Assembly (NCBI GenBank): GCA_000004985.1
Contig: GG738870.1
Source: Naegleria gruberi
Lineage: Eukaryota
DNA length: 64,000 bases
Reading direction: 5' to 3' (one strand)
Shown: one piece after another, positions 2,020 through 63,212 of the stretch
Layout: every line of letters begins with the position of its first letter
Numbering within the stretch: the first letter of the stretch is position 1
Translations under genes and position numbers: made by a program
The notes under the pieces: model-generated
What the model was told of the DNA's origin: nothing
Databases searched by the model: none
What the model saw: only the letters and a program-made list of their open reading frames with translations

Positions 2020-2286
2020 CAAATTTCAAAATAAAATCTTTGAAATTCATAGAAAATTAAGATTTTATTCAAAATAATAGTAATCAAATTTAATGGTTGC
2101 GTGAAACAAATGGATTCACCTTGCAATTGAAAATATTCATGTTTGGAATTGCGAGAAGCATGTCGTCCTAAGTTCTAATAAATATTCGATTTTAAATTCG
2201 AATCCGAAAAAGGAATTTCTTGTCGTATAACTAGTTTGCATGATATGAGTTTGTTAGCAATTCACCAATTTAAAAAACCGAACCAC

Positions 2287-3710: not shown

Positions 3711-4392
3711 AAAATCATTCCATTTTAATAATTATTATTCCATTTATAGAAAAATGTGTGAACTTTAAATTTAAACTTTCTTGAAAATGCAAAAGAGGAA
3801 ATTTTGAGTACATACTACACCTAATTTTTCTCAGCCTGTTGTTGTTGCCAATATTTTCACTAAAATCATTATCACTGTCAGATTCGCATGATAATTCGGA
3901 AAACTTTCAATCTAATATTGTTCAACAACATGATCGATTCCATCAGGTACTTCCGAACATTTTCCTATTGGTTATCATGATGATATAGGTATTATTGTTT
4001 GCATTCCAATGATTTTGTAAAACTGTCTTTAAATTTGATATTTGGTTCTCTTGTCGATCGACAATATCTTCTGTATCTTTGTTTTCTTGTTTTTCTTGAG
4101 GGGATTTCCTGTTAGTGTTCCCTTCTCACTGGCTGTTGCTGTTGTTGTTTCATAGCATCCTTAATTTGTTGTTGGACGTCAACAACCAATTCATTACTTG
4201 TTGACATTTTTCAAAGTAATTATCAAATTAATAAATATTCAATATTGAAGTATATAAAATTTCATTCAAAACAAATATTTTGAGGAATTGAATTTAAGAA
4301 TGGATCGGGATCCCTCAATCATGTAATATTTAAATATCAAATTTAATATTTAAATTATTTTGATATTACAATTTCGGAAGTTTACAAATCAA

Positions 4393-8133: not shown

Positions 8134-8161
8134 ATGAATAGATTAAATAAAGAATTCCATT

Positions 8162-8537
8162 AGAAATGTTAGGATTTTTGGAAAGGATATTGGTGTGGTA
8201 TGGAAGGTTTAAATTCGATTATTGCAGAGTTTCCTATTAAATGGTGACTATTTAGTTTCGAATGGAAGTTACGAAATTAGAAAGAGTTTGAGAGGGGAAG
8301 AAACTTTTAAATCACATATTTGCCAAAAGTCAAAGAAAACCAGTTCATGTTCATCGATGTGCAAATGAAACTCATTCAGATATTATTAATTCAGAACAGT
8401 TCCAAAAAATGTTACTGGAAATTCTCTCATATGATTAAAAAAACTTTCCAATTTAATAATTATTATTCCATTTATAGAAAAATGTGTGAAATATAAATTT
8501 AAACTTTCTTGAAAATACAAAAGAGGAAATTTTGAGT
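8162..8537 (+). pseudogene. Decayed partial duplicate of the LCAT-like gene at 2287..3710: a mosaic of four colinear fragments plus the 3' UTR.
   Basis: 8162-8235 matches 2687-2756. 8236-8297 matches 2762-2840 with a ~20-nt deletion. 8297-8313 matches 2931-2946. 8319-8537 matches 3593-3800 (last codons, stop and 3' UTR). Fragments are about 93-95% identical, in the same orientation, with no intact ORF. Confidence 0.75.
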
Positions 8538-9227
8538 AGTATTGAAAGGTGTAGTATGCACTTGTTCGAAACTTTCAACAAGTTCAAACTTGCACTCAAC
8601 ATTCTCAAACATTTTCATCCATTTTCCAGTGTCGTATTGAGTAATAGGAAGACCGCTGCATTTAGTTGGTCCACCATTTGATGAAAATGTGGAAATGAGA
8701 AAGTAACCGCCCTTCTTTAACAATTTGCACATAATTTTTAAGTACTGAACTTGATCTTCCATAGAATTCAAAAAGTGAAAAGTGGCTCGGTCATGCCAAA
8801 TGTCAATTATTTGCTCTTCTTTCAAAACCGAGTCCAATTTCAAAATATTACTTTCAATGAATGAAACTCTTTCCAATCCATTCAAAGCTTTCATTAATTC
8901 TCGACTTCTTTCAAGAGCTGCCTTTGAAATGTCAATCAAGAAATATTCGCCAAATGTCACTTTTTCTCTCTTGATTATTTCATAGCTCAGATGGGAATTT
9001 CCGCAACCAACATCGATAAATGTCTTGTTGGCATCAGAAACATCGAGAGCGGAACCAAACTTTTCTATTAATTCCAATGAAGTTTCCGGAATTTCCTGAA
9101 ACCAACTTGTTTGTGAATCTGCTTTGGTTTCGTAAACATTTTCCCAGTGCGATTTCAAATCAGTGCTTGCTTCTTGAAGAGCTGAGCTTGCCACAAGTGT
9201 TGGTGTTGTTGAGGATTCTTGTTGCAT
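8499..9227 (-). CDS. Class I SAM-dependent methyltransferase.
   Basis: ATG at 9227 in an aaaaaaaATG context; the ORF-track start at 9275 is GTG. Motif I reads IDVGCGNSHLSYEII. Motif post-I/II (FLIDISKAAL) and the Rossmann pattern are present. TAA stop. Confidence 0.75.
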   Translation of the reverse strand: MQQESSTTPTLVASSALQEASTDLKSHWENVYETKADSQTSWFQEIPETSLELIEKFGSALDVSDANKTFIDVGCGNSHLSYEIIKREKVTFGEYFLIDISKAALERSRELMKALNGLERVSFIESNILKLDSVLKEEQIIDIWHDRATFHFLNSMEDQVQYLKIMCKLLKKGGYFLISTFSSNGGPTKCSGLPITQYDTGKWMKMFENVECKFELVESFEQVHTTPFNTTQNFLFCIFKKV

Positions 9228-9611
9228 TTTTTTTCTTACTGTCGGCTGAACACCAGTATTATTGCGCCATTTCACAAAACATACTATTATGGTGTGAAGG
9301 TTGGGCCGATTATCCTCATGACTTGTAAGGTGTGGAGCATTAACGTGAGAATCAGGATATCAAAATTGATGAAAATTGCAGAGATATCTATAGATATTTA
9401 CAAAATTATACTATGCCTTGATTCTGATAAATTGTTATTTATTTACAATAAAGAAATGTTGTTAATATATTATAAGGTACATTAACAGAGATTGGATTAC
9501 ATGACTAGGTGGTGTGTGTTATGGGGTTGGAGATTAGGTGGTTATATTACATTGATTCACTCGCTGGGACTATATAGAGTTTCATTCTCAAGAGAAAGTT
9601 GACCAAATACT

Positions 9612-9905: not shown

Positions 9906-10698
9906 CTTATTATATTATATCAATTAATTGTTTTGTATTTTGTTTTAATTTGTTATTGTTGTGTGGCCAATAAACTGAATGTTGTTTAAATTACATCACA
10001 CAACAAGCATTTGTAACTTACTTGCCATTGAAAAGTCTCACCCGTGAAATTATTGTGATGAGAGATGCAATGTTGATGAGAGATAAAAATTATCTAAAAG
10101 GCTAAAAATTGCTTATTGGATGAAAGAGTAACATGTTCACCTCAAAAGAACCTTGCATTGGATAGGTTAGGTTGTCATCTATGATTGTTTTTTTTGGCGC
10201 CAAATTTTTAGATGAACTCTTTCGAGGAGAAGTTCCTTATTCATTTTAATTTGAGTATTCATTGCAAACTAGAGTAAAATCATGTGTGATATGAAAATAA
10301 ACGCAAAGTTCACATATCAATAATACATGTTTAATTTTTGTGTTTCCACTATGTACTGGATTCGATTTTGAAGTTGATTCACTGAAGAAAATATTGAGGC
10401 AAGAGCTCACATTGCTGGTTGACAATGCCATGTGTTTATACCATGTTTGATAATGGCAATAAATGCATTTTGTTAAGGGAGTTGTAAATTAAACTGATGA
10501 CTATTCTTTTGAATATTGTGGAAAATGATAAAAATGTAATTCTTAATATGGAATTTATTTTAATTGCTTATTTTGGTATGTACAGATAAATCCATGGCAA
10601 AATTACCGCAATATTCTTGGTGTGGAAGAGTTTGATTTCTTCAGTCTTGCTTGCTTGATCTTATTTTGTCGAATTTTCTTCAATCTGTAAATATCTTC

Positions 10699-11319: not shown

Positions 11320-11550
11320 TTTTTTATGTTTTGAAAATTTCATCTCCTGAAAATGTTTGTGAATTTAAAGTTTTTGCGATTTTGCTTTATTTTTAGTTTT
11401 TGAAATTTTCATGTTGTTTCAATTTGGTTGCTGTAACACGGAAAGTCGTTGGAAAAGGATAGTATGGAGTTTAGTTTTGGATATTTGCATTAGAATGGAA
11501 TTTCAATGAACATTTTTTGAACTTTATTGTAAATTTTCTTGTTAAAAAAA

Positions 11551-12687
11551 ATGTCATCAAACTGTATACACTCCCTCTCACTCGATGAAATTTTCAACGT
11601 GATGGAATTTCTCCCACTGAAAGATATTGGAAATGCTTTATGTGTTTGTCGAGAGTGGAATTCCCTAGATCAATATGAACCGTTTTGGAAGGCAAAGCTC
11701 AACCATTTTCTCTCCTCTAATATTATTCATTATTTCAGAAAATGCCAAGAGTTGTGTGGTTCTGACTTGAAAGTTTCGAATAACTTGAATGCTCAACAAA
11801 TTATTTCCATTCTAAACTCGGACGATTCCAAGAAGAAATCAATGGTCATTATTGCACTCAAATCCATGAAATGTGTTAACAAGACAATAATGGAACGTAT
11901 TGATTATCAAATTAACAAATCTATTTTAACAATGTTGGTCAACTCGTTTGATATGAATGTTTTGAAAGATAAAGTTGCGAATAGAATTTCACTCAGAATG
12001 ATTAAACAACAAGAATCTCAAAAAGAAGAACAAGTGATTGATCAGGAAAATGATTTCTTTGCATATGTCAGTGATGAGGAACAAGAGAAGAAGAATGATG
12101 AGGAATTAATTGGAGGACGATTCAAATACCTATTGGAAAGGCAAATCTTGTCAATTATTTCAACAACTATTTCCACATTCCTTTCCAAAAAGGTTAATAG
12201 AATAGGATTGTTTCCATTATTTATCAGAATTTTAACAAATAAGGAGTATAGATTCAAAGAAACTGAAATAAGTGATGATATTGACCTAGTGGAATATAAT
12301 GTCTTGCTTCAACTTGTGAAATTTCACAAAAAGTCAGAAATTCTCCTCAGGTATTGGACAGAATTGATTGACATGTCTATTAACAGATTGACATTAGAGG
12401 TAAGAGAGGAGGATTTTGGAGAAATATTGGAAACATTAATTGAGAAATATGACAACATATACTCTCTCACCATCCTTGGAGATATTTTCGATGAATTGGA
12501 ATATTTTGAACGTTTCTTACCACATTTAAAGAAATCAATTCAGAAGAATGGAATTGAGAGTGAATTTCTCATTTCCTACCTCGGTCGTTTGTCAAGATTG
12601 GAAATTCCAATTTCAAAAAAGTGGGAACGGGCTCAAATTTATTTGGAATACATTTTAGATTTTGCTCCCCCAGCCATCACAAACTTN
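11551..12687 (+). CDS. F-box protein, truncated at its 3' end by the assembly gap.
   Basis: ATG at 11551 (MSSNCIHSLSLDEIFNVMEFLPLKDIGNALCVCREWNSL is an F-box). The ORF runs uninterrupted into the N-run that starts at 12688. Confidence 0.55.
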
Positions 12688-13052
12688 NNNNNNNNNNNNN
12701 NNNNNNNNNNNNNNNNNNNNNNNNNNNNNNNNNNNNNNNNNNNNNNNNNNNNNNNNNNNNNNNNNNNNNNNNNNNNNNNNNNNNNNNNNNNNNNNNNNNN
12801 NNNNNNNNNNNNNNNNNNNNNNNNNNNNNNNNNNNNNNNNNNNNNNNNNNNNNNNNNNNNNNNNNNNNNNNNNNNNNNNNNNNNNNNNNNNNNNNNNNNN
12901 NNNNNNNNNNNNNNNNNNNNNNNNNNNNNNNNNNNNNNNNNNNNNNNNNNNNNNNNNNNNNNNNNNNNNNNNNNNNNNNNNNNNNNNNNNNNNNNNNNNN
13001 NNNNNNNNNNNNNNNNNNNNNNNNNNNNNNNNNNNNNNNNNNNNNNNNNNNN
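12688..13052. other. Assembly gap, 365 N.
   Basis: Contiguous n characters. All ORF-track entries containing X span this gap and are artefacts. Confidence 1.
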
Positions 13053-13249
13053 GATCCAAAATTTTATATTTGTCTTTACAATGCTTGCCAATTAAGATTC
13101 AACCACAATGTTTAATATTTAGCATCATTGCCAAATCTACAGTGCATCTTCCTGAAACTTTACAATTTCTTCAAGAATCTGGCAAGTGCAACCACCAAAT
13201 GGAAAATTCTAAAAATAAAACAAAACATTTCAAAAAAAAAAGCCACAAA

Positions 13250-13777
13250 ATGAAAATTGGTATTTTCGGCGGATGTAACACCACTCGTCTGACTCCAGTT
13301 CTAGAGGAAGAATTGAAGGTTCTCGCCTCACTGATCAATACGGAACAACACCTCGTTGTATACGGAGGTGGAAAGAAGGGAGTGATGAGTATTGTTCCAA
13401 AGTATTTTCATGAGAGAGGAGGAAGGGTGATTTCGATCAATACAAAGGAGGCTAATAATGGATTGGATGAGTGTTATGGTGAGAATTTTCTGTATGATAC
13501 ACTGCAGGAGAGACAGAGGAGATTGATTGAGAATAGTGAGTTGGTGATTTGTTTGCCAGGAGGAATTGGAACGATTAGTGAATTGTTTGATGTGATGGCA
13601 ATGAATAATAACAAGATTAGGAGTGTCAAGATTTTATTGTATAATTTTGAAGGATTTTTCAATCACATGATTGAACAAATTAAATTATTGGGAAAGAATA
13701 CGGATGAATATTTGATAGTGACAAATGAAGTGAATGACTTGATGGAACGTTTGAAGGAATTAATTAAAATTGAATAG
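13250..13777 (+). CDS. LOG-family (lonely guy) cytokinin riboside 5'-monophosphate phosphoribohydrolase / TIGR00730 protein.
   Basis: ATG at 13250 after an A-run. MKIGIFGG...VVYGGGKKGVM...LPGGIGTISELFD matches LOG motifs. The same frame stays open upstream to the gap, so an N-terminal extension cannot be excluded. Confidence 0.8.
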   Translation: MKIGIFGGCNTTRLTPVLEEELKVLASLINTEQHLVVYGGGKKGVMSIVPKYFHERGGRVISINTKEANNGLDECYGENFLYDTLQERQRRLIENSELVICLPGGIGTISELFDVMAMNNNKIRSVKILLYNFEGFFNHMIEQIKLLGKNTDEYLIVTNEVNDLMERLKELIKIE

Positions 13778-14830: not shown

Positions 14831-15151
14831 CTTGCCTTCATGTGGTTTAGAATATTTTATCAGTCACGATTATATTATGAATGCTGTTGAATGTACAAGT
14901 CTCTACTGCTATCAGATATGCCTGTATTAATAAAATTGATAAGCAAATTGATCACTTGTTGGACTGAATGGCAGTCATGTAGACGTCTCTTTGTAAGGCA
15001 AGATGAGTTTGCACCACTCTTTCCAATGGCAGTCATGAGAATTTCCCTATTCCACTGGAAAATATTCATAAATATTTGGTTCCTTTTCAATAATTACCTA
15101 AAATATTTGTGAATGATTTAAAATTTCTAAAAAGAACAACCAAAAACATTT

Positions 15152-15224
15152 ACCGACAATGGGGCTCGAACCCACGACCCCAGGATTAGAAGTCCTGTGC
15201 TCTATCCAACTGAGCTATGACGGC
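15152..15224 (-). tRNA. tRNA-Arg (anticodon TCT).
   Basis: GCCGTCATAGCTCAGTTGGATAGAGCACAGGACTTCTAATCCTGGGGTCGTGGGTTCGAGCCCCATTGTCGGTA. Cloverleaf with D-arm GCTC/GAGC, anticodon loop CTTCTAA and T-loop TTCGAGC. The acceptor stem has one U-U mismatch and a terminal G-U. A T5 tract lies 5 nt downstream (15142-15146 on the minus strand). Confidence 0.6.
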
Positions 15225-36284: not shown

Positions 36285-36548
36285 TTTGTTGATCGGATTG
36301 GTTGATCGGAAACTATTGTGATAAGCCTGTGAAATTAATACTAAATGATATTATTAGGTTGGGAATTCATAAGTGATTTTTTTAAATTTATTAAATAATT
36401 TTTCAAAAATAAAATATAATTGTTTTTTCCAAATTTATTGAATTTAATCCTTAAACAAAATGTAGTATCTGAATTTTATATATGTCCAGAGCTTTGGAAC
36501 AGTAATGTATCAAATAGCTGGAACAATACTTTTCAAGCAAATACATGA

Positions 36549-36619
36549 AGGGAGATAGTTCAGTGGTAGAACATGGGATTGTGGTTCCTAAGATCAGGGT
36601 TCGATTCCCTGTCTTCCTA
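36549..36619 (+). tRNA. tRNA-His (anticodon GTG), copy 1.
   Basis: AGGGAGATAGTTCAGTGGTAGAACATGGGATTGTGGTTCCTAAGATCAGGGTTCGATTCCCTGTCTTCCTA. Anticodon loop TTGTGGT, T-loop TTCGATT, discriminator A. No G-1 is encoded, which is the eukaryotic situation. T5 terminator at 36624-36628. Confidence 0.85.
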
Positions 36620-36623
36620 CACC

Positions 36624-36628
36624 TTTTT
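36624..36628 (+). terminator. Pol III T5 terminator of tRNA-His copy 1.
   Basis: TTTTT lies 4 nt after the discriminator base. Confidence 0.6.
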
Positions 36629-36910
36629 GACTTTTACTTATTCTAGAATTAAGCCTGTTTATGTAGGAGTTTACAGTATTTAAGAGACAAGAAATAATTT
36701 CAAACTCTGGTTACCAGCTTTTATTTATTTAATTATACGAAATAACAATGAATTTCCTCTCCTTCCCATTCCTCTCCAAAAACTTCCTTTGTTCTGAATC
36801 AACAATAATCCACTTCAAAATCAAATACAGCATTATTCCACTTTCGATCATAGTCCAAAAGTTCAAATACACCAAAATAGTAATGGCGTTTGACAAGAAT
36901 TCAAAAAAAA

Positions 36911-48213: not shown

Positions 48214-48286
48214 GCCCGTCTAGCTCAGTCGGTAGAGCGCAAGGCTCTTAACCTTGTGGTCGTGGGTTCGACCCCCACGGTGGGCG
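48214..48286 (+). tRNA. tRNA-Lys (anticodon CTT).
   Basis: GCCCGTCTAGCTCAGTCGGTAGAGCGCAAGGCTCTTAACCTTGTGGTCGTGGGTTCGACCCCCACGGTGGGCG, a canonical Lys-CTT sequence. T-rich terminator at 48294-48304. Confidence 0.9.
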
Positions 48287-49348: not shown

Positions 49349-49989
49349 TGAATTAACATTTGGTTTTTTCGATTTGGTAATCTTCTTATTAGTGTTGATT
49401 TACACGACCATAGTTTTCATGGAGGATTTATGCAGTATCCATCAACTTGCTGTTTGTTCAGGATTCAAATTCCAATTTGTTTTGGAGTATCTAATTAATG
49501 GCAATAATCAAAAAAGAAAAGACTACAGCACCACAGGTTCCCAAGTTGTCTCCAACCTCAGTACTGATGTGGCTCGACGATGCTTAACTTCTCAAATCGG
49601 ACGGGATGAGGTGCATTCATCGTGATATGGCCGTAGCCATTCAATTCTTTAAATTGTTCAATATTAATGTGTCTACTCATGGGAAATTCAAATATCAATA
49701 TATAACAGCTCACAAAGTTCATTCTTAATTTTAATCAACACTAAAATCTACAAATAGAGAGAAAGATACTAAGCAATAATGAGTTAAAACAAAATTAAAG
49801 AATCAATGGTTGAATTATCCAAGACTATTTTCGGAGTCAGTTAACAAGCAAAATAAATGAAGTTCCTCTAACTTCCTCAAAATGTTACCACCATAACCAT
49901 GTCCTCCCATTTAAAGCAAGTCTACACGGAGTTAACAAGCAAAATAAATTTTCGCTTGGATTTTCCACATAGTTTCTCCCACAAAAAAA

Positions 49990-50592: not shown

Positions 50593-50624
50593 AGTAAATA
50601 ATCAAAATTAAAAGTTAAAAGGTG

Positions 50625-50695
50625 TAGGAAGACAGGGAATCGAACCCTGATCTTAGGAACCACAATCCCATGTTCTACCACTGAACTATCTCCCT
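50625..50695 (-). tRNA. tRNA-His (anticodon GTG), copy 2. Identical in sequence to copy 1.
   Basis: The reverse complement is the same 71 nt as 36549-36619. The 5' flank AAGGGAGAT and 3' flank ACACCTTTT are shared with copy 1. Confidence 0.85.
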
Positions 50696-50820
50696 TCTTC
50701 TTGCCTTAAGATTAATTTTATAATTATTGTACAATTCTTCTCCCATTGCTAATAATTTACATTTATTGCTACAATCAATTTTATCCACATTCATTTCCTT
50801 CAATGTTATATTGTGCACAA

Positions 50821-53387: not shown

Positions 53388-54529
53388 ATGAATCCACGTA
53401 CTACATTTCTTTGCATTACATTCCTCATTGTTTCCTTTTTGCTACACTACTCCCATCAGCAGCTTCCACTCTCTCGTCAATATCAATACAATACTACCCT
53501 AGCTAAGGATGGTAGCTTTGATTTGTTTTGGTCAATTCAGGATGGTGAATTGTACATGGCCATGTCTGCACAAACTAATGGGTGGTTGGCTGTGGGATTC
53601 AACTCATTTGTTGAAAATAATGCTGAAGATAAGGATGTAGATATGAGACTCACTGACATGATTCTTGGATGGAGAGATTCGAGTGGTAATACCTATTTGT
53701 ATGATAGTTATGCCATGAGCAATTCAATTCCAAGTATGGATACTCAATTGTAAGTATGCTTTTGAACATTATAAGTATGAAATATTCTTTCTTTGAATAT
53801 TAACATAATAGAGGAGGAACTGATAATTCAATTCTCATTCAATCTTGGGAAACAACAGGTAGAACCATTATTGAATTCAAAAGAGCACTCGATACCAAAG
53901 ATTCCTATGATGTGGCCATTCTCCCAAATAGAAAACTCATTCTCCTCTATGCCCTATCAGCACAAGATCCAAGCAATAATCAGTACAATTCCTTATCAAT
54001 CCATACCAAGAGAGGTTCAGTAGCAATTCCAAACTTTTGGCCATTACAACAGAATGAAACTCTCTCCGAAAAACAATCCAATATTACCATTTCCAATCAA
54101 ACTAGCACTTCTTCATCTGGTAGTACTTTCAATAGTACTGCTAGCAGTGGAAGTAGTAGTATTACTAATCAAACATCTATTATCTTTCCTCCAATTACTT
54201 TTCCTCCTCAAAACAACAACAATAATAATACTGCTGCTACTACTGGTGGCACAACAACAACACCTCCTCCTCCACCACAACATAATCAAACAATCATTGT
54301 CATTCCACCCTTCTTCCCATCAAGTTCTTCTCCAGTTATTGGAAATAATAATAATAATGGAAATCATAACAACAATGGATCTACACCATCATCATCGGGA
54401 AAGCCTGGCAAAGAAAAACCAATAATTTCCATTCAAATTGCAAGAGCCAACCAATTAGGTGCATCGGGTCCATTATTCATTGTTGTGGCCAATCTTTTCA
54501 TTATGCAAATGTTACTCGCCTACTTGTGA
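53388..54529 (+). CDS. Secreted DOMON-domain protein with a Ser/Thr/Asn-rich stalk and a predicted GPI-anchor signal. Two exons: 53388..53749 and 53812..54529.
   Basis: ATG at 53388 with a signal peptide. GTAAGT donor at 53750 and acceptor ...aataatag at 53811, phase 2. The DOMON-like core (FDLFWSIQDGELYMAMSAQTNGWLAVGFN ... TIIEFKRALDTKDSYDVAIL) spans the junction. The C-terminus has STSSSGST/NNNNN/PPPP tracts and ends in a hydrophobic GASGPLFIVVANLFIMQMLLAYL. Confidence 0.7.
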
Positions 54530-54846
54530 TAATTTTTTTTTAAATTTTAAAAATTTTAAATACATAACAATAAAAAGTGGCGCGAACAATTTTTCACCAC
54601 ATTTTGATATTCAACGGAAATTAATCTTTGTGCAATTCAAAGTTGCATTTTCACTGCAATTCAAAGATCAAGAGGTGGACCTCGTTGTACAGGATGCCCA
54701 TTCGGAAGCGAAATCGTGTCTATTCCGTAGGTAACCTCCAATTTTTCTGTAACACTCAAAAGCTCATATTTAAAAATCACTCAATTTCTCAAATATAAAA
54801 AAAACAATTCAACAGTTTCGAACAAAACCTGCCGCAAAATTTTAAA

Positions 54847-56040
54847 ATGACAGAAATTATTTACTTTGGTGATTATCAAATGTTTAGAAAATTGAAAGAA
54901 CTTTACAATGTTTCTTCCAATTCTTCCAATAATTCAGAAAAGAAATTGATGATGAAAAGAAAGAAGAAAACATGTTTGGAGAATATTTCATTCATGTTCA
55001 AGGAAAATCACTTTCAATTTCCTCCAAGATTGAACAATAACAATACAAATTATCATGGTTCAAAAAGTCAGAGAATTGTTGATTTTCAATTGGGAGATGA
55101 TTTTGTAATTTGTCAAACTGAATCTACTCAATTATATTTCATTGGATTGTATTCCAATAAGGGAGGAATCAATTATCTTTGTGAACAAATGCCATGTGAA
55201 AAAATTGGAAAGACTGAACTAATCAAATGTTGTTCCAATAAGATTCTTATCAAATCATTGGCTGGAAAGTTTTACATTGCTGAAGTTAAGAAATTAGATC
55301 AGGTACCAATTTTCAAACCAGTTGAAGCTTTTGTAAATACAGTAGTCAATGAAACCGTTAAGGGAGTTCATTTTGGAGAGAATTTCAATTCAGTCTTGAC
55401 TGAGAAGAGTCAAGTTTTCTCTGAGGGAAGATTCATCATTACCAATGACAGATATGGATACGATTGGATTTATCCAGCACCTGCAGATTTGCTCTTACCA
55501 ACAAGTGTCACTACTATTGAAAAGATCTTTGGAGATAATCACTCATTCATGGTTAAGGATGCAAATCCAAATGCTTTGAAAAAGTACTACTTGTATCAGC
55601 AACATTGGAAAAATCAAAATCCCTCACTCGAAGATTGGATTCTCAAATATTTCCCAGAGGAGCATTCGATTACAATTGAGGATGTTATTCCAAATGGATG
55701 TGGAGTTGGATATTTAGTGTTGGTTTCGTTTGGAGATTCTGACTTGAAACGTATTGTCATGATTGGACATAAGGGTGAATTTTGTCAATTCAGCCAATAT
55801 TTGGAAGTATTGGATGAAAGAAATGATTTTTATCACACATTCGATTTTCCTTCCTATTTCTATTCAGTAACAGGTTTTAATGAGGAATTTTCATTTGAAA
55901 ATTGTCATTTCACCACAAATTTCGCCTTATTTGAAATGAAACAAACTGAAAAGTTAAATTTCCATTCTAAACTCTACAAGAATAGTCAATATTCAGATAT
56001 TGAGTTTGTCACACAATCTGAAGGAGAACCATTATTGTAA
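54847..56040 (+). CDS. Unknown protein, family member A (397 aa). Paralogue of 60419..61717.
   Basis: ATG at 54847. The first ~75 aa are nearly identical to paralogue B. The rest is about 35-40% identical (e.g. QLGDDFVICQTESTQLYFIGLYSN, FPSYFYSVTGF). Confidence 0.55.
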   Translation: MTEIIYFGDYQMFRKLKELYNVSSNSSNNSEKKLMMKRKKKTCLENISFMFKENHFQFPPRLNNNNTNYHGSKSQRIVDFQLGDDFVICQTESTQLYFIGLYSNKGGINYLCEQMPCEKIGKTELIKCCSNKILIKSLAGKFYIAEVKKLDQVPIFKPVEAFVNTVVNETVKGVHFGENFNSVLTEKSQVFSEGRFIITNDRYGYDWIYPAPADLLLPTSVTTIEKIFGDNHSFMVKDANPNALKKYYLYQQHWKNQNPSLEDWILKYFPEEHSITIEDVIPNGCGVGYLVLVSFGDSDLKRIVMIGHKGEFCQFSQYLEVLDERNDFYHTFDFPSYFYSVTGFNEEFSFENCHFTTNFALFEMKQTEKLNFHSKLYKNSQYSDIEFVTQSEGEPLL

Positions 56041-56078
56041 ATATTGTAATGAATGTATTAAATGTATTAACATTTCAA

Positions 56079-58151
56079 TTAATCTTTCTTCTTTTTGGAT
56101 AGTGAACTGGAGGACTGTGTTGAACTCTTTCTCTTGGATTTCGTTTTTGGTGTGGAAGGCGGCAAATCAACATCCATGTACGCATTGGAAGAGGATGGAT
56201 TATTCGAAAGTAAATTCTCTAATTCAATTTGACTATTTTTTGTTCTTTCAATGATATCGAATATGGAAGAATCGAATATTAAGGAAGTTGAACAACTGTC
56301 AAATGAAGAATTGAGAGAAATTTGATCGAATGAAGTATTATGATGTGCTTGATCGTCTGCAGAACAACCTTCTCCAATACTATTAACATTCTCGGTGGTG
56401 TCATCTAACAAGGAGACAATACAGAGATTTCCAAATTGATCACTCGATGCCAATAAAGTATCCGAAATGGCCAAGGATCGAATAGAACTGGGATGAATCT
56501 TTTCAAATTTGTGAGAATAGTTAGTTTTCTTGTTAGAATTCTCAATGGAGTGAATGGAATTCCACATGTACAAATGTCCATCTCTACAACCAGTGAGCAT
56601 CATGTCATTTCCATAAAATGCTGGAACTATTTGAGTATCCATACATGGATTTGATGAATATTTGTGAATTAGTGATGAAATACCTGTTGGCTTACAATTA
56701 TTTCCTAAATTCCACAATTTACTTCCAAGTTGGGAAGTTGAAATGAGAATTGGTTCGTTTCTAGAATTTTGTAAACAATGTAAATCGAAAATCTTTTCCT
56801 GTGATTTACAATGTGAAATGAAAGGTTCAATATAACGTTGGGACTTGCTATCGAAATATGAATTTTCACTTGTAATGCATGCTTCGCTTCCAAAAGTAAA
56901 TTCTGGTTCTTGTTTTGGAAATTTTCTTTTCTGAGAATTATTTGTCCAATTTCCAAATAAAGTATTTGAAGAATATTGACTATTAGAGTTGGTATCACAT
57001 TCATCATCATCTTCTAATGAATATGCCAAATCAGCTTGAAATTCTACCAAATTATCGTTTTGAATAATCTCAGTAACATAATTCGACATTTTTCTAATGT
57101 CCCACCACTTGATAGAACACGGAAGATCAGTAATAATCGAATCCTTAGATGAAGATGTGAATAATGAAAATTCAGAGTTTGGCATCCAACAGCACGAATG
57201 AACAAACTCTTTCAAATTCACGCTATATATTGGTCGACTCAATTGATTAGACCAAATTTTCAAAGTCTTATCAAGGGAAGTTGAGGCAATTAAATTCTCC
57301 CTCCAATTAGTTTTAACATCTGTAATGTAATTGACATGTTCATTGAAAGTCAATTGTGGTCCAATAATTTGTTTCGAATTGTGTTGTGAAAGGTCATAAC
57401 AGAATAGTGTGGAATCGTCTGAGGCAACATAACAATGTCCATCACTGGTTGTACAAATTCTATTGATAAAAGGTCGTGAAGGAAGTGGAATGAGAGTTGG
57501 TGAAGTGAGTGTGAAATTTGTTGAGCTAGAGTTTACAATGGAATAATCATCTGGAATTTTGTAAAGTTGAATACAACCATCTACATCTCCTCCTAGCAAT
57601 ATTTGATTGGAGAATTGATAATTTCCATTCAAAGACTTGGGAATAAATTTCATGGTAGTCATTGTTCCACAGCTCTTATATTGAAACACTTTGGATTGGA
57701 CATTTGACAGTTTTTCCTTCTTTTTCTTCTTTGTGGTAGCACTTTTAGGTGTCCTAGGCGAAATATCCTCAAGATTCATCAATAAAGAGTCGTGACTTTG
57801 TCTCATTTGTGAAATTCTTTCCAATTGATTCACCATTCTTCCTCTCAAATGATTCCAACAAATTTTCGTATAACTCTCTTCCAAACATTGTGAAGATATC
57901 TGCTTCCCCTTTGATCCGTTCAATATAAACCTATTAAACATGCACACATTTAACAGGGAATGATTCCTTCCACAATTTTCACTAAACTTGTTAAGAAAAT
58001 TCGTTCGGAGTTGATGAGAAGAAGAGATGAAGTCTTCATCCGTTGGTGGAAAGAGCTTTTTGAGTGAGGGATGCTGCTGTTCAATTTTCTTCCTCCTATG
58101 TTGCTCCAATCGTTTGGGAATCACGACTGGCTTGAGAGGTGAATTGAACAT
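56079..58151 (-). CDS. WD40-repeat protein.
   Basis: ATG at 58151 (aaaaaaATG; the track start at 58178 is TTG). WD-like segments (CIQLYKIP, TLKIWSN, HLYMWNS, LASSDQFGNLCIVSL). Lys/Ser-rich C-terminus. Confidence 0.6.
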   Translation of the reverse strand: MFNSPLKPVVIPKRLEQHRRKKIEQQHPSLKKLFPPTDEDFISSSHQLRTNFLNKFSENCGRNHSLLNVCMFNRFILNGSKGKQISSQCLEESYTKICWNHLRGRMVNQLERISQMRQSHDSLLMNLEDISPRTPKSATTKKKKKEKLSNVQSKVFQYKSCGTMTTMKFIPKSLNGNYQFSNQILLGGDVDGCIQLYKIPDDYSIVNSSSTNFTLTSPTLIPLPSRPFINRICTTSDGHCYVASDDSTLFCYDLSQHNSKQIIGPQLTFNEHVNYITDVKTNWRENLIASTSLDKTLKIWSNQLSRPIYSVNLKEFVHSCCWMPNSEFSLFTSSSKDSIITDLPCSIKWWDIRKMSNYVTEIIQNDNLVEFQADLAYSLEDDDECDTNSNSQYSSNTLFGNWTNNSQKRKFPKQEPEFTFGSEACITSENSYFDSKSQRYIEPFISHCKSQEKIFDLHCLQNSRNEPILISTSQLGSKLWNLGNNCKPTGISSLIHKYSSNPCMDTQIVPAFYGNDMMLTGCRDGHLYMWNSIHSIENSNKKTNYSHKFEKIHPSSIRSLAISDTLLASSDQFGNLCIVSLLDDTTENVNSIGEGCSADDQAHHNTSFDQISLNSSFDSCSTSLIFDSSIFDIIERTKNSQIELENLLSNNPSSSNAYMDVDLPPSTPKTKSKRKSSTQSSSSLSKKKKD

Positions 58152-58393
58152 TTTTTTAAATAAATTAAAAAAATTCAAATTAGAAATCGTAACGGTAAAA
58201 TTTTTTAAAATGGAACTCTAATAGAAAAAATTGATAGAAATTTGAAATATGAAGTAACACAACAAGTAAGCAATACAACAAGCTGCTTCCAAAACATAAA
58301 AGTACTTTCAAGATAATTTTTCATTAAGATTTTTAATCCATTCAACCACCATCGGAGTGCAGAAGGAATTAAAATAAAAAAAAAATTCTCATC

Positions 58394-58846
58394 ATGAAAT
58401 CCTTCTTAGCCACCTTGTTGGTTTGTCTCTTGATTGCCTACACTGTTAGTGCTCAAAATATGCAATGGAACGTTTGCAAGCGTTTCTCCTCTCAAACTTT
58501 GCAAATTTCTTCCCTCTCAATTTCTCCAGATCCACCACAAGCTGGCAATAATTTGCAAGTCAATCTCCAAGGTACTTTAACCTCACCAATGGGCACAGGA
58601 GCCACTGGTACTGTTGAAGTTCAATATGCTGGTACTCCAATGTATTCCGGTCCTTTTGATCCATGTCAATTCTTGCAAGGATCTAATACTCCATGTCCAC
58701 TTGCTAAGGGTCCAACTACTCTTTCTGTTTCTCAACAAATTACTCCAATGGCTCCTGCTGGAGGTCCATATCAAGGAACTATTATCATCAATGATGAAAA
58801 TAAGAATGTTGTTACTTGTATTGATTTTAATTTCATGATGAATTAA
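58394..58846 (+). CDS. Secreted ML-domain (MD-2-related lipid-recognition, Npc2/Der p 2-like) protein.
   Basis: Signal peptide MKSFLATLLVCLLIAYTVSA. Six Cys in an ML-like arrangement (C..C...PC.F...PCP...C.DF). Highly biased codon usage. Confidence 0.6.
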   Translation: MKSFLATLLVCLLIAYTVSAQNMQWNVCKRFSSQTLQISSLSISPDPPQAGNNLQVNLQGTLTSPMGTGATGTVEVQYAGTPMYSGPFDPCQFLQGSNTPCPLAKGPTTLSVSQQITPMAPAGGPYQGTIIINDENKNVVTCIDFNFMMN

Positions 58847-58995
58847 ATTGTTATTATTAATTGATGAATATGATCAAATATGATATACGGAAGAAATGAA
58901 TATAAATATTATTAATTTATTATTATTATAATTTATAATTGGTATTATGACTGGTTGAGCAATGCAATAATATAACAGTGAGAGTAGCAAAGTAT

Positions 58996-60334
58996 TTATG
59001 GAGATTCATCCACGTCCATTTCTTCTAAATTCTTATTCTTTCTCCTCTCTTGTGAGAATTTAATTTGTCTCTCGAACAAGGCTTTTTCTGGATCATAGGC
59101 ATGTTTGCAAGCATGTTGCATGGTACAGAATTTACATTTAATCATGTCTGGTTTTGCTACAAATTCCTTATCTTCCACAACTAGAGATATTCCACATTTC
59201 AAAAAGTATTGTAAAGTCAAGTTCAGTTAAAGAAAATTAAAATATCGACAACATACTCTTAGTTGCATACTCGAGAATCATATTCTCAGTGGCAGAATGA
59301 TCAAATTTATCATCTGTGAATGAATAGACTTCTCCTGTTGTGAGACAGGTGAGGTTACTCTTTGAAATTGTTTCTCCAAATAATTGTTGGAAAGCATAGT
59401 GATAGATTGATAATTGTTTTTCAAATCCACTCAAATATTTTGGTTTGATAGAGCTCTTATATTCCACTACGACGTATTTAGATTGATCATTTTCATCCTT
59501 CTCAATATCAACTCTATCAAAGATTACAACCAAATCAACGTCTGACGAACCTCCAACACCAGTCAGTACAAAACTTTCTTCGATCAAGACAGGTCTTCTA
59601 TTACCATTCATGCCAAAATGCTGAGCTGCACTATGGCTTTGGAATAGAGATGATGGTGGCAGTAGTATATTGGTCAATTCTCTCTTAATTTGATTCCTAA
59701 GCATTTCTTTGGATTCCTGAACGACATCTTTTGGTACATAGATAGATTCAGCCTTTGCAGATCCAACAACATGTCTATTAAATGTCTTGACAGCTCTCTC
59801 GGTTATGAAATCCAAAAATTCTGGATTTTCAGTCCTATTTGTTCCATCAATCAATTCATTACTCTGTTGTAAAATTCTATTCAATTCCACATCATTTTTG
59901 ATTTTCTTAACAATCTCAGAGGCTATAATCTTGTTATATCCAATGTTTTTAGCAAAATCCACTTCCAAATCCACTCCTTTTGCTGGTCTATAATGAGAAT
60001 AGGCCAGTTTTGCTTTATGATTTGCCTCAGTCAAGAATAATCCAGACTCTTCTTCTACCTTCTCAATTTCCTGATAGACCAAATTATATAATTTAGAAAA
60101 GTGAGCCAAAGATTCATGAAGTGATGATCCCCTAATAATTGGAACTGTTGGTTTCCCCTTTACCTCTTTATCAAGATAACTCAAATAATACCGATGAGGA
60201 CAAGTCATATAAGTGTCCAATTTACTATTATTTCCGATATAATAATTCAGCACAACATTCCGTATCAAATATACTATCAATATATAAATTTACCTATAAC
60301 TCATCATTAACTTCTTTCCTAGTTTTCGCGACAT
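58996..60334 (-). CDS. PD-(D/E)xK nuclease of the Exo5/Cas4/AddB type with a four-Cys [4Fe-4S] motif, 397 aa. Three exons: 60294..60334, 59257..60224 and 58996..59180.
   Basis: ATG at 60334 (aaaaaaaATG). GTAAAT donor at 60293 and acceptor ...aaataatag at 60225 (69-nt intron). GTATGT donor at 59256 and acceptor ...tctctag at 59181 (76-nt intron). Phases are consistent. N-terminal SYSKLDTYMTCPHRYYLSYL. Central DVDLVVIFDRVD...VVVEYKS (D...D-x-EYK). C-terminal exon has KCKFCTMQHACKH (C-x2-C-x5-C). Confidence 0.65.
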
Positions 60335-60418
60335 TTTTTTTAAATCAAGTTTTTCTTTTTTCGAATTGGCGCCAAAATTATCCAACCTAATTTCATTCGT
60401 GGATTGAAATGTTATTGT

Positions 60419-61717
60419 TTATTCACTAACACCACTTTGTGTAACAATGTTAATATCCAAATATTGAGTATTCTTTGTCAATGTAGTGAAAAATCTGTTT
60501 TTTTGAATGGATTCCTTTTCGAATAGAATAAAATCATTGGTCAAGTGACACTTTTCCAATGTGAAATCTTCATCAAATCCAGTAACTGAGTAAAAGTATG
60601 AAGGAAAATGATAAATGTGGGCTTTCCAATAGAAACCTCCCTCTGAGGCAACCAAATTCAAGTGTTCACCCAAAGAGTTGTTTTCATTGGTACTAAGCAT
60701 GATGAGAGCATTCTTTCCACTTTCAAAAGAAAGCAAAAACAAATATCCATCACCTGATGGGTTTCCAATAATATTCTTAATGGTGACGGTTTCCTCTGGA
60801 AAAGATCTGTAAATTGCATTATCAATGGCGTCACTGACACAACCCCAACCATTACTGAGATAGTGCTTATTGTTTTCCTTAAATAATAATGTATGATTAT
60901 CAGCAAGTAGCTTTTCCTTATTGAGAAACAAATGGACACAATTATTATCTATAGAATGAGATCCAGTTGGTGCTACTCCTATGAATCCAACAAAATCTTC
61001 TCCAATAACTCCATCAAATATGTCTGGATATTTGAATAAATGATCTACAGGTTTTGGATTTGGGGTTGAATTCAATTTCTCCACATCAGCCACGTAGAAA
61101 TTTTGGGAAAGAGTTTTGATAAGGATTGTTTTCAAACCACATTTCACCCATTCTATTTGTCCCATTTTTTGACATGGTAGTGGTCTACAGTAGTATTTGA
61201 TATCAGCACGACGATTGTTGCTGTTAGATGACTGATTTGAATACAATCCAATGAAATATAATTGAGTAGATTCAGTTTGACAAATTACAAAATCATCTCC
61301 CAATTGAAAATCAATAATTCTCTCATTAATCATTTCATCTTCACTCAATTCCAAAACATGAACAATTGAATCACTTCTATTCAAATCAAATAATGTCAAG
61401 GTTTGACTTGGAAAGAATTCATCTCCATTCCATGTCAATACTCCAATTACATTCTTGAAAACTTTCAATTTTTCAAACAAGACATTGGTTCCGAATTGAC
61501 TTTTTGATCCATGATAATTTGCATTGTTATTGTTCAATCTTGGAGGAAATTGAAAGTGATTTTCCTTGAACATGAATGAAATATTTTCCAAACATGTTTT
61601 CTTCTTTCTTTTCATCAATTTCTTTTCTGAATTATTGGAAGAATTGGAAGAAACATTGTAAAGTTCTTTCAATTTTCTAAACATTTGATAATCACCAAAG
61701 TAAATAATTTCTGTCAT
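60419..61717 (-). CDS. Unknown protein, family member B (432 aa). Paralogue of 54847..56040.
   Basis: ATG at 61717. The 5' ~230 nt are about 97% identical at DNA level to 54847-55075. It carries a ~57-aa insert that is absent from paralogue A. Confidence 0.6.
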   Translation of the reverse strand: MTEIIYFGDYQMFRKLKELYNVSSNSSNNSEKKLMKRKKKTCLENISFMFKENHFQFPPRLNNNNANYHGSKSQFGTNVLFEKLKVFKNVIGVLTWNGDEFFPSQTLTLFDLNRSDSIVHVLELSEDEMINERIIDFQLGDDFVICQTESTQLYFIGLYSNQSSNSNNRRADIKYYCRPLPCQKMGQIEWVKCGLKTILIKTLSQNFYVADVEKLNSTPNPKPVDHLFKYPDIFDGVIGEDFVGFIGVAPTGSHSIDNNCVHLFLNKEKLLADNHTLLFKENNKHYLSNGWGCVSDAIDNAIYRSFPEETVTIKNIIGNPSGDGYLFLLSFESGKNALIMLSTNENNSLGEHLNLVASEGGFYWKAHIYHFPSYFYSVTGFDEDFTLEKCHLTNDFILFEKESIQKNRFFTTLTKNTQYLDINIVTQSGVSE

Positions 61718-61939
61718 TTCAAGTTTGATTTGATGATGATTGCAATTTCCAAGTGAATTGTTTTTCTTTTAAATTTAAACTATTAAAGGTGTTACACTTT
61801 TTCTTAAATATGTAAATAAGTGAGGTTACACACGGAATAGACACGAGTGTCGATTTGCTTCCGATAACTGCAACTTTGAATTACCTGTAAAACGTTGATC
61901 TGCATTGTGTCTGTCTACTCTAAGTAACCGAACAACATT

Positions 61940-63070
61940 TCAATAGAATTTTCTATGAACAATGCTTGGACCCTCTTCTTGATATTCAAAATCAGTAAGC
62001 CACAAATTCTGAGATGATGAAAAACTAGCCATCAGACTGCCACCAAGCCAAACTGATTCATCACCCAAAGGAGGCGCAACTTTGATCTTGTATTTGTATT
62101 CAGGAAATAGTGAAATCAATTCTTTGGAAATTCTCTTATCCATTCCAGAAAACATCGTTCCACCTCCTGAAAGAATAATATTTGCTCTGAAATCAGCTCT
62201 AATATCAAGATCACTTTTGGTAATTGTGTTACATATTGTTTCAATGATGTTCTCTGATTCAATGTTGAACAGTTTTGGTTGGAAGAATATTTCAGGACAC
62301 TGATATCTTTCACAGTCCAAATTGATGTGATTTCCATCTGGTAATTCAAATATCTTTTCAACAGACTCTTGAGATTCAGAGACTTTTCGATATTCTTCTT
62401 CATAATTGAGAGCTACATAACAAACATTTTCCTTAATATCCCTTGCAATTTCCTTATCTACAAGTCCCTTTTTCGTTACCATCTCCATCATGTAATTAGT
62501 CAACTCTCTACCACCAAAATCCATTCTCAAAGTAGCATGAGGTAATGCACTTCCCTCATACACAGGAACTGAATGAGTTACATCATCACCAGAGTCCAAA
62601 ACTAATCCAGTAGTTCTGCCAGATGCAAATACAGACAAGGCAGCTTGACTAGTCGAATACAAACCCTGTACTCTAAACTTTTCAAACATTATTTCAGTCA
62701 TTTGTTCTCTATCCTTCTTCCGATAGTTTTCTGGAACTCAATAGAACGCCTCTCTGTAAAGAAGGATCCACCTTCATCTCTTCAAATACAAAATTCCAAA
62801 TCATTTCCATATCATCCCAACTTGATATTTTCCTCCCTTCTATTGGCTTTCTCAATATTAAATCTTCTCTCTTTAATTTGGCTACCTCTCCAACAAAATA
62901 ATCAATTCCCAAACAATGTTCTTCTCGTTGATGATTTATTATGTTGTATTCCTAACTTGGCCAATAATTGAAGGAAAAACAAGTCTCGGACCATCCTCAC
63001 CAGAAAATCCAGCTCTTGTCCTATAACCTCCATTGTCTATTACTATTGCTTCGTTATCTCCTGCTATCAT
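61940..63070 (-). pseudogene. Actin-related (divergent actin/Arp) gene whose reading frame is broken twice. Candidate pseudogene.
   Basis: Three consecutive ORF segments in three frames each align to successive parts of actin. 63070..62939 reads [38 protein letters not shown]. 62912..62709 reads IDYFVGEVAKLKR...SWDDMEMIWNFVFEEMKV...VLLS. 62701..61940 reads (DREQ)MTEIMFEKF...IVHRKFY. The frame changes occur within about 26 nt and about 12 nt without usable GT..AG introns. Confidence 0.5.
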
Positions 63071-63212
63071 TGTTGATTTTAATTTTTGAAATAAAATTCC
63101 GTTCTGTTTATTGGAACTTTTCATGAGCATGATGAACTTTAGGTATAATTGATTTGGAACAGCTTTGGATTGTTAATAGTTACAAACCATAGCAAATTTT
63201 GCATTTCCAATG

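What the first reader, a model, noticed from the sequence alone, without database searches (positions are those of the whole stretch)
54847..61717. Inverted paralogue pair with a near-identical 5' tract bracketing a WD40, an ML-domain and an Fe-S nuclease gene
Genes 54847-56040 (+) and 60419-61717 (-) encode members of one unknown family. Their first ~230 coding nt are about 97% identical (one 3-nt indel and a few substitutions, both beginning exactly at the ATG). The remainder is only about 35-40% identical at protein level, and copy B has an extra ~57-aa block. The upstream non-coding DNA is unrelated. A young identity tract embedded in old paralogues is the signature of gene conversion or ectopic recombination between inverted repeats. 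Such repeats can also invert the intervening 4.4-kb block, which contains the WD40 gene, the secreted ML-domain lipid-binding gene and the Exo5/Cas4-like nuclease gene. That makes this 7-kb block the most accessory-looking unit in the window.
Basis: seen in the sequence. Interest (0 to 1): 0.6.

Follow-up and report, generated by a model that had tools for sequence, protein, structure and literature searches.

The report
Gene-conversion tract between inverted Naegleria paralogues
Two old, convergently oriented copies of a Naegleria-only gene, probably encoding a beta-propeller protein, share a nearly identical stretch at their 5' ends that is best explained by copy-and-paste recombination (gene conversion) between them, which is a real but ordinary kind of event.

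Summary
The window is Naegleria gruberi nuclear DNA. Genes A (54847-56040, +) and B (60419-61717, -) are lineage-specific paralogues.

The shared tract runs from 5 nt upstream of each ATG. It is longer than reported: 320 nt in A (54842-55161) against 491 nt in B (61232-61722). The two differ by 5 substitutions, a 3-nt ATG slippage and one clean 174-nt in-frame indel.

Synonymous divergence is 0.078 in the tract and about 1.4 (saturated) elsewhere. A change-point test gives 2dLL 274, against at most 18 in 200 shuffles.

The "extra block" in B lies inside the tract and is ancestral, because N. lovaniensis and N. fowleri homologues have it. Copy A has therefore deleted 58 codons, which correspond to one four-stranded propeller blade in the model.

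The upstream DNA is not wholly unrelated. Four collinear motif islands survive, including a 25-mer matching at 23 of 25 positions.

The family is Naegleria-only and probably a divergent RCC1-like beta-propeller, but this rests on a low-confidence model.

Interlocus gene conversion, probably recurrent, is the best explanation. Inversion of the interior is possible but untested. Nothing marks the block as accessory or mobile. This is a new example of a known process, of modest interest.

The parts
54847..56040 (+). Copy A: an intact 397-codon ORF identical to the public N. gruberi model P0002. It lacks one 58-aa repeat unit.
60419..61717 (-). Copy B: an intact 432-codon ORF. The public model P0001 (666 aa) uses only residues 1-321 and splices them to the neighbouring nuclease, skipping 111 conserved C-terminal codons. 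This is probably an annotation chimera.
54842..55161 (+). Young tract, arm in A (320 nt). It starts 5 nt before the ATG and ends at a 24-nt low-complexity indel.
61497..61722 (-). Young tract, arm in B, first segment. It pairs with A 54842-55070 at 96.9% identity.
61324..61497 (-). 174-nt (58-codon) block present in B and precisely absent from A, with a 1-nt ambiguity at the junction. It is ancestral, being present in the N. lovaniensis and N. fowleri homologues, and corresponds to four beta-strands (one blade) in the model.
61232..61323 (-). Young tract, arm in B, second segment. It pairs with A 55070-55161 at 96.7% identity.
54949..54954 (+). ATGATG in A against a single ATG in B (61604-61618 region): a 3-nt slippage indel inside the tract.
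54714..54738 (+). Upstream 25-mer TCGTGTCTATTCCGTAGGTAACCTC, at -133 to -109 from the ATG of A. It is a candidate shared cis-element.
61822..61846 (-). The same 25-mer (23 of 25 positions identical), at -129 to -105 from the ATG of B. These are the only two copies in the window.
54634..54647 (+). Upstream island AATTCAAAGTTGCA in A. Its B partner is at 61869-61882 (-). Further collinear islands are CGGAAGC (54703-54709 and 61857-61863) and AAAAACAATTCA (54800-54811 and 61754-61765).
56079..58151 (-). Interior gene 1: a WD40-repeat protein. The first ATG of the 699-codon ORF is at 58151.
58394..58846 (+). Interior gene 2: a 150-aa ML-domain (E1_DerP2_DerF2, 3.7e-19) protein. Its N-terminus is hydrophobic and looks like a signal peptide, read from the sequence only.
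58996..60208 (-). Interior gene 3: a PD-(D/E)XK nuclease with a Cas4-like cysteine pattern (Cys3, then CxxCx5C). It has two exons and a 76-nt GTATGT...CTAG intron at 59181-59256.

Best explanation
A and B are paralogues that arose by an old inverted duplication in the N. gruberi lineage. The duplicated unit was the whole gene plus at least 215 nt of promoter. They now lie tail-to-tail, with their 5' ends outward, around three unrelated genes.

They encode a Naegleria-restricted protein, probably a divergent RCC1-like beta-propeller. Its N-terminal strand (IIYFG) plausibly closes the ring.

Non-allelic (interlocus) gene conversion between the two inverted copies has homogenised a segment running from 5 nt upstream of the start codon to a low-complexity indel about 490 nt into the B-type sequence. 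Everything outside this segment has diverged to synonymous saturation.

The flanks are now only 55-60% identical, which is too divergent to start homologous recombination afresh. The most likely history is therefore repeated conversion that never let this segment diverge (local concerted evolution). The last event is dated by dS of about 0.08.

After that event, copy A lost 174 nt in frame, exactly one blade-sized repeat, through a junction with 1 nt of microhomology, and it gained an ATG by slippage.

Shown: the tract, its boundaries, the difference in age, the ancestral state of the 58-aa block, and the restriction of the family to Naegleria.

Inferred: conversion as the mechanism, its recurrence, the order of conversion and deletion, and the propeller fold.
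For: - Age difference: tract dS is 0.078 and dN 0.008. The rest has dS 1.40 and dN 0.53.
- Internal control: the strongly conserved C-terminal block (FPSYFYSVTGF, 64% aa identity) has only 32-40% identity at third positions. Protein-level selection in this pair therefore does not preserve synonymous sites, yet the tract does.
- Significance: change-point 2dLL is 274 against at most 18 in shuffles.
- Replacement rather than insertion: homology continues in register on both sides. Downstream are codons at 38-39% aa identity. Upstream are four collinear motif islands at similar distances from the ATG. This fits replacement within an existing paralogue, not insertion of a partial copy at a naive site.
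- Lineage of the duplication: outside the tract A-B identity is 39%, against 23% and 27% to N. lovaniensis. N. lovaniensis and N. fowleri each show one copy at a mutually syntenic locus unrelated to this one. The duplication is therefore specific to the N. gruberi lineage.
- Ancestral block: the 58-aa block is present in both outgroup homologues. Its removal from B reproduces A exactly.
- No embedded RNA: nothing reaches an Rfam gathering score, and the RNA folding z-score is +0.74.
- Precedent: gene conversion between adjacent inverted or direct paralogues, with diverged flanks, is well documented (review PMC3966223).
Against: - No population or sister-species data were available. Neither tract-versus-flank phylogenetic incongruence nor donor polarity could be tested.
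- The present flanks (about 55-59% nt identity) are far below what homologous recombination normally needs. A single recent conversion is therefore mechanistically awkward, and recurrence is assumed rather than shown.
- The large indel inside the tract needs an extra step: a later deletion, two separate patches, or an unrepaired heteroduplex loop.
- The tract shows no GC enrichment. GC3 is 0.26-0.28 in the tract and 0.29-0.30 in the rest, so there is no signature of GC-biased conversion.
- The raw reads of the assembly were not inspected.
Confidence: 0.75

Rival explanations
1. This was a partial-duplication or template-switch event rather than homologous conversion. A roughly 0.5-kb piece of the B 5' end was copied once, for example by a replication template switch between the inverted copies or by patch duplication, and it replaced or capped the 5' end of the old paralogue A, creating a chimeric gene.
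For: - The flanks are too divergent for ordinary homologous strand invasion.
- The same 64-kb window holds another young patchy copy with no homologous target. LCAT-like gene fragments 2688-2841 and 3590-3810 are recopied at 8161-8538, at 84-95% identity, about 5 kb away in intergenic DNA. Short-range copy-and-paste therefore occurs in this genome.
- The review warns that incomplete duplication mimics conversion.
Against: - Both junctions are perfectly in register with the old paralogy. The reading frame is kept, and the promoter islands lie within 4 nt of the same distances from the ATG.
- No duplicated or displaced old 5' end of A was found in the window.
- A non-homologous event landing exactly so is improbable.
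Confidence: 0.14
2. Nucleotide-level purifying selection keeps the 5' segment identical in both copies. The cause would be an embedded non-coding RNA, an mRNA structure or localisation element, or an overlapping gene.
For: - The tract starts essentially at the start codon, where translation-control elements lie.
- The region is somewhat better conserved with N. lovaniensis: 34% aa identity against 23-27% elsewhere.
Against: - No Rfam family comes near its threshold. The best match scores 23 bits against a 65-bit cut-off.
- RNA folding is no better than in shuffled sequences, with a z-score of +0.74.
- The 174-nt deletion and the 3-nt indel are tolerated inside the tract.
- The N. lovaniensis homologue is only 34% identical there, so the segment is not under exceptional constraint.
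Confidence: 0.04
3. The tract is an assembly artefact. One arm would have been built from reads belonging to the other copy, through collapse or a chimeric consensus.
For: No reads were available to check. The assembly is a draft whole-genome shotgun scaffold (418 kb).
Against: - The arms differ by 5 substitutions, a 3-nt indel and a 174-nt indel.
- Each arm continues into unique, in-frame, homologous but diverged sequence on both sides.
- On general knowledge, a 0.3-0.5-kb repeat is shorter than a single Sanger read.
- Both ORFs stay intact.
Confidence: 0.03
4. The inverted tracts act as an invertible-segment system. Crossover within the tracts flips the roughly 6.1-kb interior (55162-61231), swapping the two promoters between the two diverged gene bodies and reassorting the blade indel. 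The tract identity would then be a by-product of, or maintained for, this flip-flop.
For: - The geometry is right. The repeats are inverted, about 98% identical and 6.07 kb apart, and lie at the outward-facing 5' ends. An inversion would leave both ORFs intact and exchange only the promoters.
- On general knowledge, conversion and crossover are alternative outcomes of the same recombination intermediates.
Against: - There is no evidence of the other orientation.
- The interior contains no site-specific recombinase.
- On general knowledge, arms of 0.2-0.3 kb are short for efficient non-allelic crossover.
- The promoters share motif islands, so a swap may change little.
Confidence: 0.04

Closest known systems
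Interlocus (ectopic) gene conversion between closely linked paralogues. Examples are C. elegans hsp16 inverted modules, col-12/col-13 and fog-2/ftr-1 (review PMC3966223), and, from general knowledge, the human fetal gamma-globin pair, whose 5' conversion tract ends at a simple-sequence repeat.
   Same: - A block of near-identity that includes synonymous sites, embedded in older divergence.
- The copies are a few kb apart on one chromosome.
- One tract boundary lies at a low-complexity indel.
- The flanking and promoter DNA has diverged.
   Different: - The flanks here are saturated (dS about 1.4), far older than in most described cases.
- The tract contains a whole-repeat (one-blade) deletion in one copy.
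- The organism is a heterolobosean amoeba, for which my one literature search turned up no locus-level description of such a case.
Arm-to-arm conversion and inversion in palindromes or inverted segmental duplications. From general knowledge: human Y-chromosome palindromes, the FLNA-EMD inversion, and the F8 int22h inversion.
   Same: Inverted repeats flanking a unique spacer. The same recombination intermediates can give either conversion or inversion of the spacer.
   Different: - The arms here are 0.3-0.5 kb, not 10-1000 kb.
- Only a sub-segment of each paralogue is homogenised.
- No inversion polymorphism has been shown.
RCC1-like domain (RLD) seven-bladed beta-propellers: RCC1/Prp20, RPGR, HERC2 RLDs, Kti13/Ats1, RCC2, WBSCR16.
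   Same: - One repeat resembles the RCC1 signature (ERIIDFQLGDDFVICQTESTQLYF against VVGLSLGGNFSGCITETGKLYMW).
- A has a weak Pfam WD40_RLD hit (6e-4).
   Different: - No Pfam RCC1 or RLD score comes near the cut-off (19.6 against 150 bits).
- The model is low-confidence (pLDDT 53.6).
- TM-scores are only 0.35-0.46.
- hhalign to an RCC1-repeat protein is not significant, with a probability of 1.8%.
- Copy A is one repeat short.

Membership tests
Interlocus gene-conversion tract | A contiguous segment whose identity is significantly higher than that of its flanks | tested here: met
   98.7% against 55% identity. 2dLL is 274 against at most 18 in 200 shuffles. See also the sliding windows.
Interlocus gene-conversion tract | Homogenisation extends to synonymous sites, so it is not protein-level selection | tested here: met
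   dS is 0.078 against 1.40. The conserved C-terminal block has dS above 2 despite 64% aa identity.
Interlocus gene-conversion tract | Older homology continues in register on both sides of the tract, indicating replacement rather than partial duplication to a new site | tested here: met
   Downstream codons are aligned at 38-39% aa identity. Upstream there are four collinear islands.
Interlocus gene-conversion tract | Phylogenetic incongruence: paralogues group by species in the tract and by orthology in the flanks | not testable with these tools
   The only outgroups (N. lovaniensis, N. fowleri) are single-copy and diverged before the duplication. No N. gruberi-complex genomes were reachable.
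RCC1-like beta-propeller (RLD) | Sequence match to RCC1 or RLD profiles above the curated threshold | tested here: not met
   WD40_RLD scores 19.6 bits against a 150-bit cut-off for A, and B has no hit. hhalign probability is 1.8%.
RCC1-like beta-propeller (RLD) | A beta-propeller fold built of four-stranded blades, closest to solved RLD structures | tested here: inconclusive
   [not shown]
Invertible DNA segment (flip-flop between inverted repeats) | High-identity inverted repeats bracketing the segment | tested here: met
   Arms are 97-98% identical with 6070 nt between them.
Invertible DNA segment (flip-flop between inverted repeats) | Both orientations are observed | not testable with these tools
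   Exact look-ups and metagenome scans found no other copy of the locus.
Invertible DNA segment (flip-flop between inverted repeats) | A dedicated site-specific recombinase is encoded in or next to the segment | tested here: not met
   The interior genes are WD40, ML-domain and PD-(D/E)XK nuclease genes. There is no recombinase or transposase domain.
Mobile or accessory element | Terminal repeats with target duplication, a transposase or integrase, and deviant base composition | tested here: not met
   GC is 0.31-0.34, as in the rest of the window. The 25-nt inverted motif is embedded in further collinear homology and is not an element terminus. There are no mobility genes.

The most novel reading that the evidence does not exclude
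The 5' module (ring-closing strand, basic linker and first blades) is kept identical in both paralogues by recurrent conversion that selection favours, while the remaining blades diverge. Occasional crossovers in the same tract flip the 6-kb interior. Such a flip would swap promoters between the two bodies and reassort the one-blade indel, giving a recombination-based way of generating propeller variants in a nuclear eukaryotic genome.
Probability: 0.05. Interest if true: 0.55.

Novelty: new member of a known kind. Interest (0 to 1): 0.25.

Why it matters
- It is a clean, locus-level example of non-allelic recombination acting on nuclear paralogues in Naegleria gruberi. The recombination biology of this organism is inferred mostly from gene inventories.
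- It shows that only a sub-segment of old duplicates can stay homogenised while the rest saturates. Anyone dating duplications in this genome should take note.
- It gives a first structural hint for a Naegleria-only orphan family (a likely RCC1-like propeller) and documents a natural one-blade deletion variant.
- It flags a probable mis-fused public gene model.
- None of this changes current understanding of gene conversion.

Tried and rejected
- The AF2 model of copy B with a two-sequence alignment failed (pLDDT 36.6) and was not used for fold search.
- The afdb50 fold library was unavailable.
- The homology search with the spliced nuclease returned nothing at E <= 0.001. It did not even return the public N. 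gruberi model that contains it. This is uninformative, and it left no searches for finding orthologues of the interior genes, so synteny of the interior block in other Naegleria species could not be tested.
- A PDB sequence search with the family profile gave only chance-level hits. The nuclease had no PDB sequence hit.
- Exact look-ups of A and B in other assemblies found no record.
- A metagenome scan with the family profile and an exact 37-mer of the tract both found nothing.
- The 25-nt upstream motif is absent from the N. lovaniensis locus.
- I considered whether the 174-nt block in B is a retained intron. It is not. It has no GT..AG boundaries in any register that restores A, it is in frame, and it is conserved as protein in other species.
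- I considered whether the 25-nt inverted motifs are transposon termini. I rejected this because collinear homology continues outside them.
- I considered cDNA-mediated conversion, which could explain a boundary near the ATG. I rejected it as the main model because, on general knowledge, such events are 3'-biased, whereas this tract is 5'-only.
- There is no GC-biased-conversion signal.
Full report
**Origin and genes**

The window is Naegleria gruberi nuclear DNA. The two ORFs match the public "predicted protein [Naegleria gruberi]" entries P0002 (397 aa, identical to copy A) and P0001, both on a 418-kb scaffold. Copy A is 54847-56040 (+) and copy B is 60419-61717 (-). They are convergent, so their 5' ends face outward. 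Each is the other's only relative in the 64-kb window.

**Check of the observation**

The near-identical 5' stretch is real, but it is larger than described.
- Repeat finding, MAFFT and BLASTN show A 54842-55070 against B 61722-61497 at 96.9% identity, with one 3-nt indel.
- After a 174-nt B-only block, A 55070-55161 matches B 61323-61232 at 96.7%.
- Identity begins 5 nt before each ATG and ends at a 24-nt low-complexity indel (QSSNSNNR in B).
- In 25-codon sliding windows, nucleotide identity falls from 0.92-1.00 to 0.40-0.69. Third-position identity falls from 0.88-1.00 to 0.28-0.64.
- A two-change-point likelihood scan places the tract at A 54845-55154, with 98.7% identity inside and 55% outside. 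2dLL is 274, against a maximum of 18 in 200 shuffles.
- By the Nei-Gojobori method, the tract has dS 0.078 and dN 0.008. The remainder has dS 1.40 (saturated) and dN 0.53.
- The strongly conserved C-terminal block (FPSYFYSVTGF...) serves as an internal control. It has 64% amino-acid identity but only 32-40% third-position identity. Protein-level selection in this pair does not preserve synonymous sites, whereas the tract does.

**The indel inside the tract**

Deleting 174 nt from B at offset 220 or 221 reproduces A exactly, apart from the true substitutions. The apparent codon-75 difference is therefore part of the deletion, and the tract carries 5 substitutions. The junction has 1 nt of microhomology and no GT..AG boundaries, so the block is not an intron.

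The 58 residues are present in the N. lovaniensis (P0003) and N. fowleri (P0004, P0006) homologues. B therefore keeps the ancestral state and A has lost the block. In the model of P0003 these residues (about 53-110) form four consecutive beta-strands, that is, one blade.

**Upstream DNA**

Globally the upstream regions are unalignable (50% identity), but they are not unrelated.
- A 25-mer, TCGTGTCTATTCCGTnnGTAACCTC, lies at -133 to -109 in A and -129 to -105 in B. It occurs nowhere else in the window, and none is expected by chance.
- Three further islands are collinear with it: AATTCAAAGTTGCA, CGGAAGC and AAAAACAATTCA.

The original duplication therefore included the promoter. These islands look like conserved cis-elements. 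The 25-mer is absent upstream of the N. lovaniensis gene.

**The family**

An exhaustive HMMER search of 1.84 billion cluster representatives with the A+B profile found only five proteins: the two N. gruberi models, N. lovaniensis XP_044548927 (1.9e-28), an N. fowleri fragment (4.2e-11) and, at 1e-4, an RCC1-repeat protein.
- The N. fowleri gene is full length in the DNA but changes frame near L002:10540.
- The N. lovaniensis and N. fowleri loci are syntenic with each other (CN-hydrolase, UBC, LRR-RhoGEF, a hypothetical gene, the family member, EnY2, ParA-like, TLD, dymeclin). Each holds one copy. Neither shares neighbours with the N. gruberi window.
- Outside the tract A and B are 39% identical to each other, against 23% and 27% to N. 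lovaniensis. The duplication is therefore specific to the N. gruberi lineage.

**Fold**

Pfam gives nothing significant. A has a WD40_RLD hit at 6e-4 and 19.6 bits, against a 150-bit cut-off.

I read the family as a probable, highly divergent RCC1-like propeller. Membership is not established.

**Mechanism**

The age contrast, the sharp boundaries and the in-register old homology on both sides fit interlocus gene conversion between the inverted copies. This is a well-documented process for closely linked paralogues in either orientation (review PMC3966223).

The flanks are now only 55-59% identical. I therefore infer recurrent conversion that never allowed this segment to diverge, with the last event about 0.08 synonymous substitutions per site ago. 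The 174-nt deletion and the ATG slippage in A would have followed it.

The alternatives rank as follows.
- A one-off template-switch or partial-duplication event cannot be excluded. The window does contain another young patchy copy without a homologous target: LCAT-like fragments at 2688-2841 and 3590-3810, recopied at 8161-8538. The exact register at both junctions argues against this for the A/B pair.
- Nucleotide-level selection is unlikely. There is no Rfam family, the folding z-score is +0.74, and indels are tolerated.
- An assembly artefact is unlikely given the differences between the arms and their unique flanks. I did not inspect the reads.
- No GC-biased-conversion signal is present.

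**Inversion and "accessory" claims**

The geometry would allow a crossover in the tract to invert 55162-61231. That would swap promoters between the two gene bodies while leaving both ORFs intact. Nothing available here tests this, and no recombinase is encoded in the interior.

The interior genes are ordinary:
- a WD40 protein;
- an ML-domain protein with a hydrophobic N-terminus;
- a two-exon PD-(D/E)XK nuclease with a Cas4-like Cys...CxxCx5C pattern (PDDEXK_1 at 3.4e-14, and TIGR00372 cas4 at 3.2e-11 but below its cut-off).

Base composition matches the rest of the window. The "accessory unit" reading is not supported.

**Verdict**

The tract is real and statistically secure, and it is best explained by gene conversion between old inverted paralogues of a Naegleria-only, probably propeller-fold family. 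It is a new example of a known process. Interest is modest (0.25).

Noticed in passing
window 2688-2841 and 3590-3810, against 8161-8296 and 8318-8538: This is a second young, patchy duplication. Two fragments of an LCAT-like gene (2236-3710, +) are recopied in direct orientation about 5 kb away at 84% and 95.5% identity. The copy lacks the roughly 750 nt between them and has no intact ORF. It is probably a pseudogene fragment in intergenic DNA beside ORF 8499-9275 (-).
   Followed up: partly
window 59237-61717 (-): The public model P0001 (666 aa) joins copy B residues 1-321 to the neighbouring PD-(D/E)XK nuclease ORF. It skips the 111 C-terminal codons of B that are conserved with copy A and with the N. 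lovaniensis homologue, so it is probably a mis-fused gene model.
   Followed up: partly
window 58996-60208 (-): The nuclease gene has a 76-nt intron (59181-59256, GTATGT...CTAG). Splicing restores a C-terminal CxxCx5C motif which, with Cys3, gives a Cas4/AddB-like four-cysteine pattern. The homology search with the spliced product returned nothing, not even the public model that contains it.
   Followed up: partly
window 36547-36639 (+) and 50606-50697 (-): Two tRNA-His(GTG) genes lie in inverted orientation 14 kb apart. They are 100% identical over 81 nt, including a few flanking bases.
   Followed up: no
window 49520-49638 (-): A 5S rRNA gene (Rfam, 105 bits) sits among protein-coding genes, with tRNA-Lys(CTT) at 48214-48286 (+). 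tRNA-Arg(TCT) lies far away at 15151-15224 (-).
   Followed up: no
L002 9788-11079 (N. fowleri): The N. fowleri homologue is full length at the DNA level but switches reading frame near 10540, and it is annotated as only 182 aa. The cause could be a frameshift, a pseudogene, a sequencing error or an unrecognised short intron.
   Followed up: partly
window 54459-54734 (+) and 61822-61900 (-): The shared 25-mer ends in a TAA that closes short upstream reading frames in both copies (...SEAKSCLFRR* in A, ...SEANRHSCLFRV* in B). With 23 of 25 nt identical, a coding upstream ORF cannot be told apart from a DNA motif.
   Followed up: no
window 12001-13000: This stretch has the lowest GC in the window (0.22, against about 0.33 elsewhere). 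Several long overlapping ORFs on both strands (11539-13777) suggest low-complexity sequence.
   Followed up: no
window 61940-63130 (-): An actin-like gene, split into at least three ORF pieces (61940-62701, 62709-62912, 62939-63130), so it apparently contains introns. It ends 222 nt upstream of the start codon of copy B.
   Followed up: no
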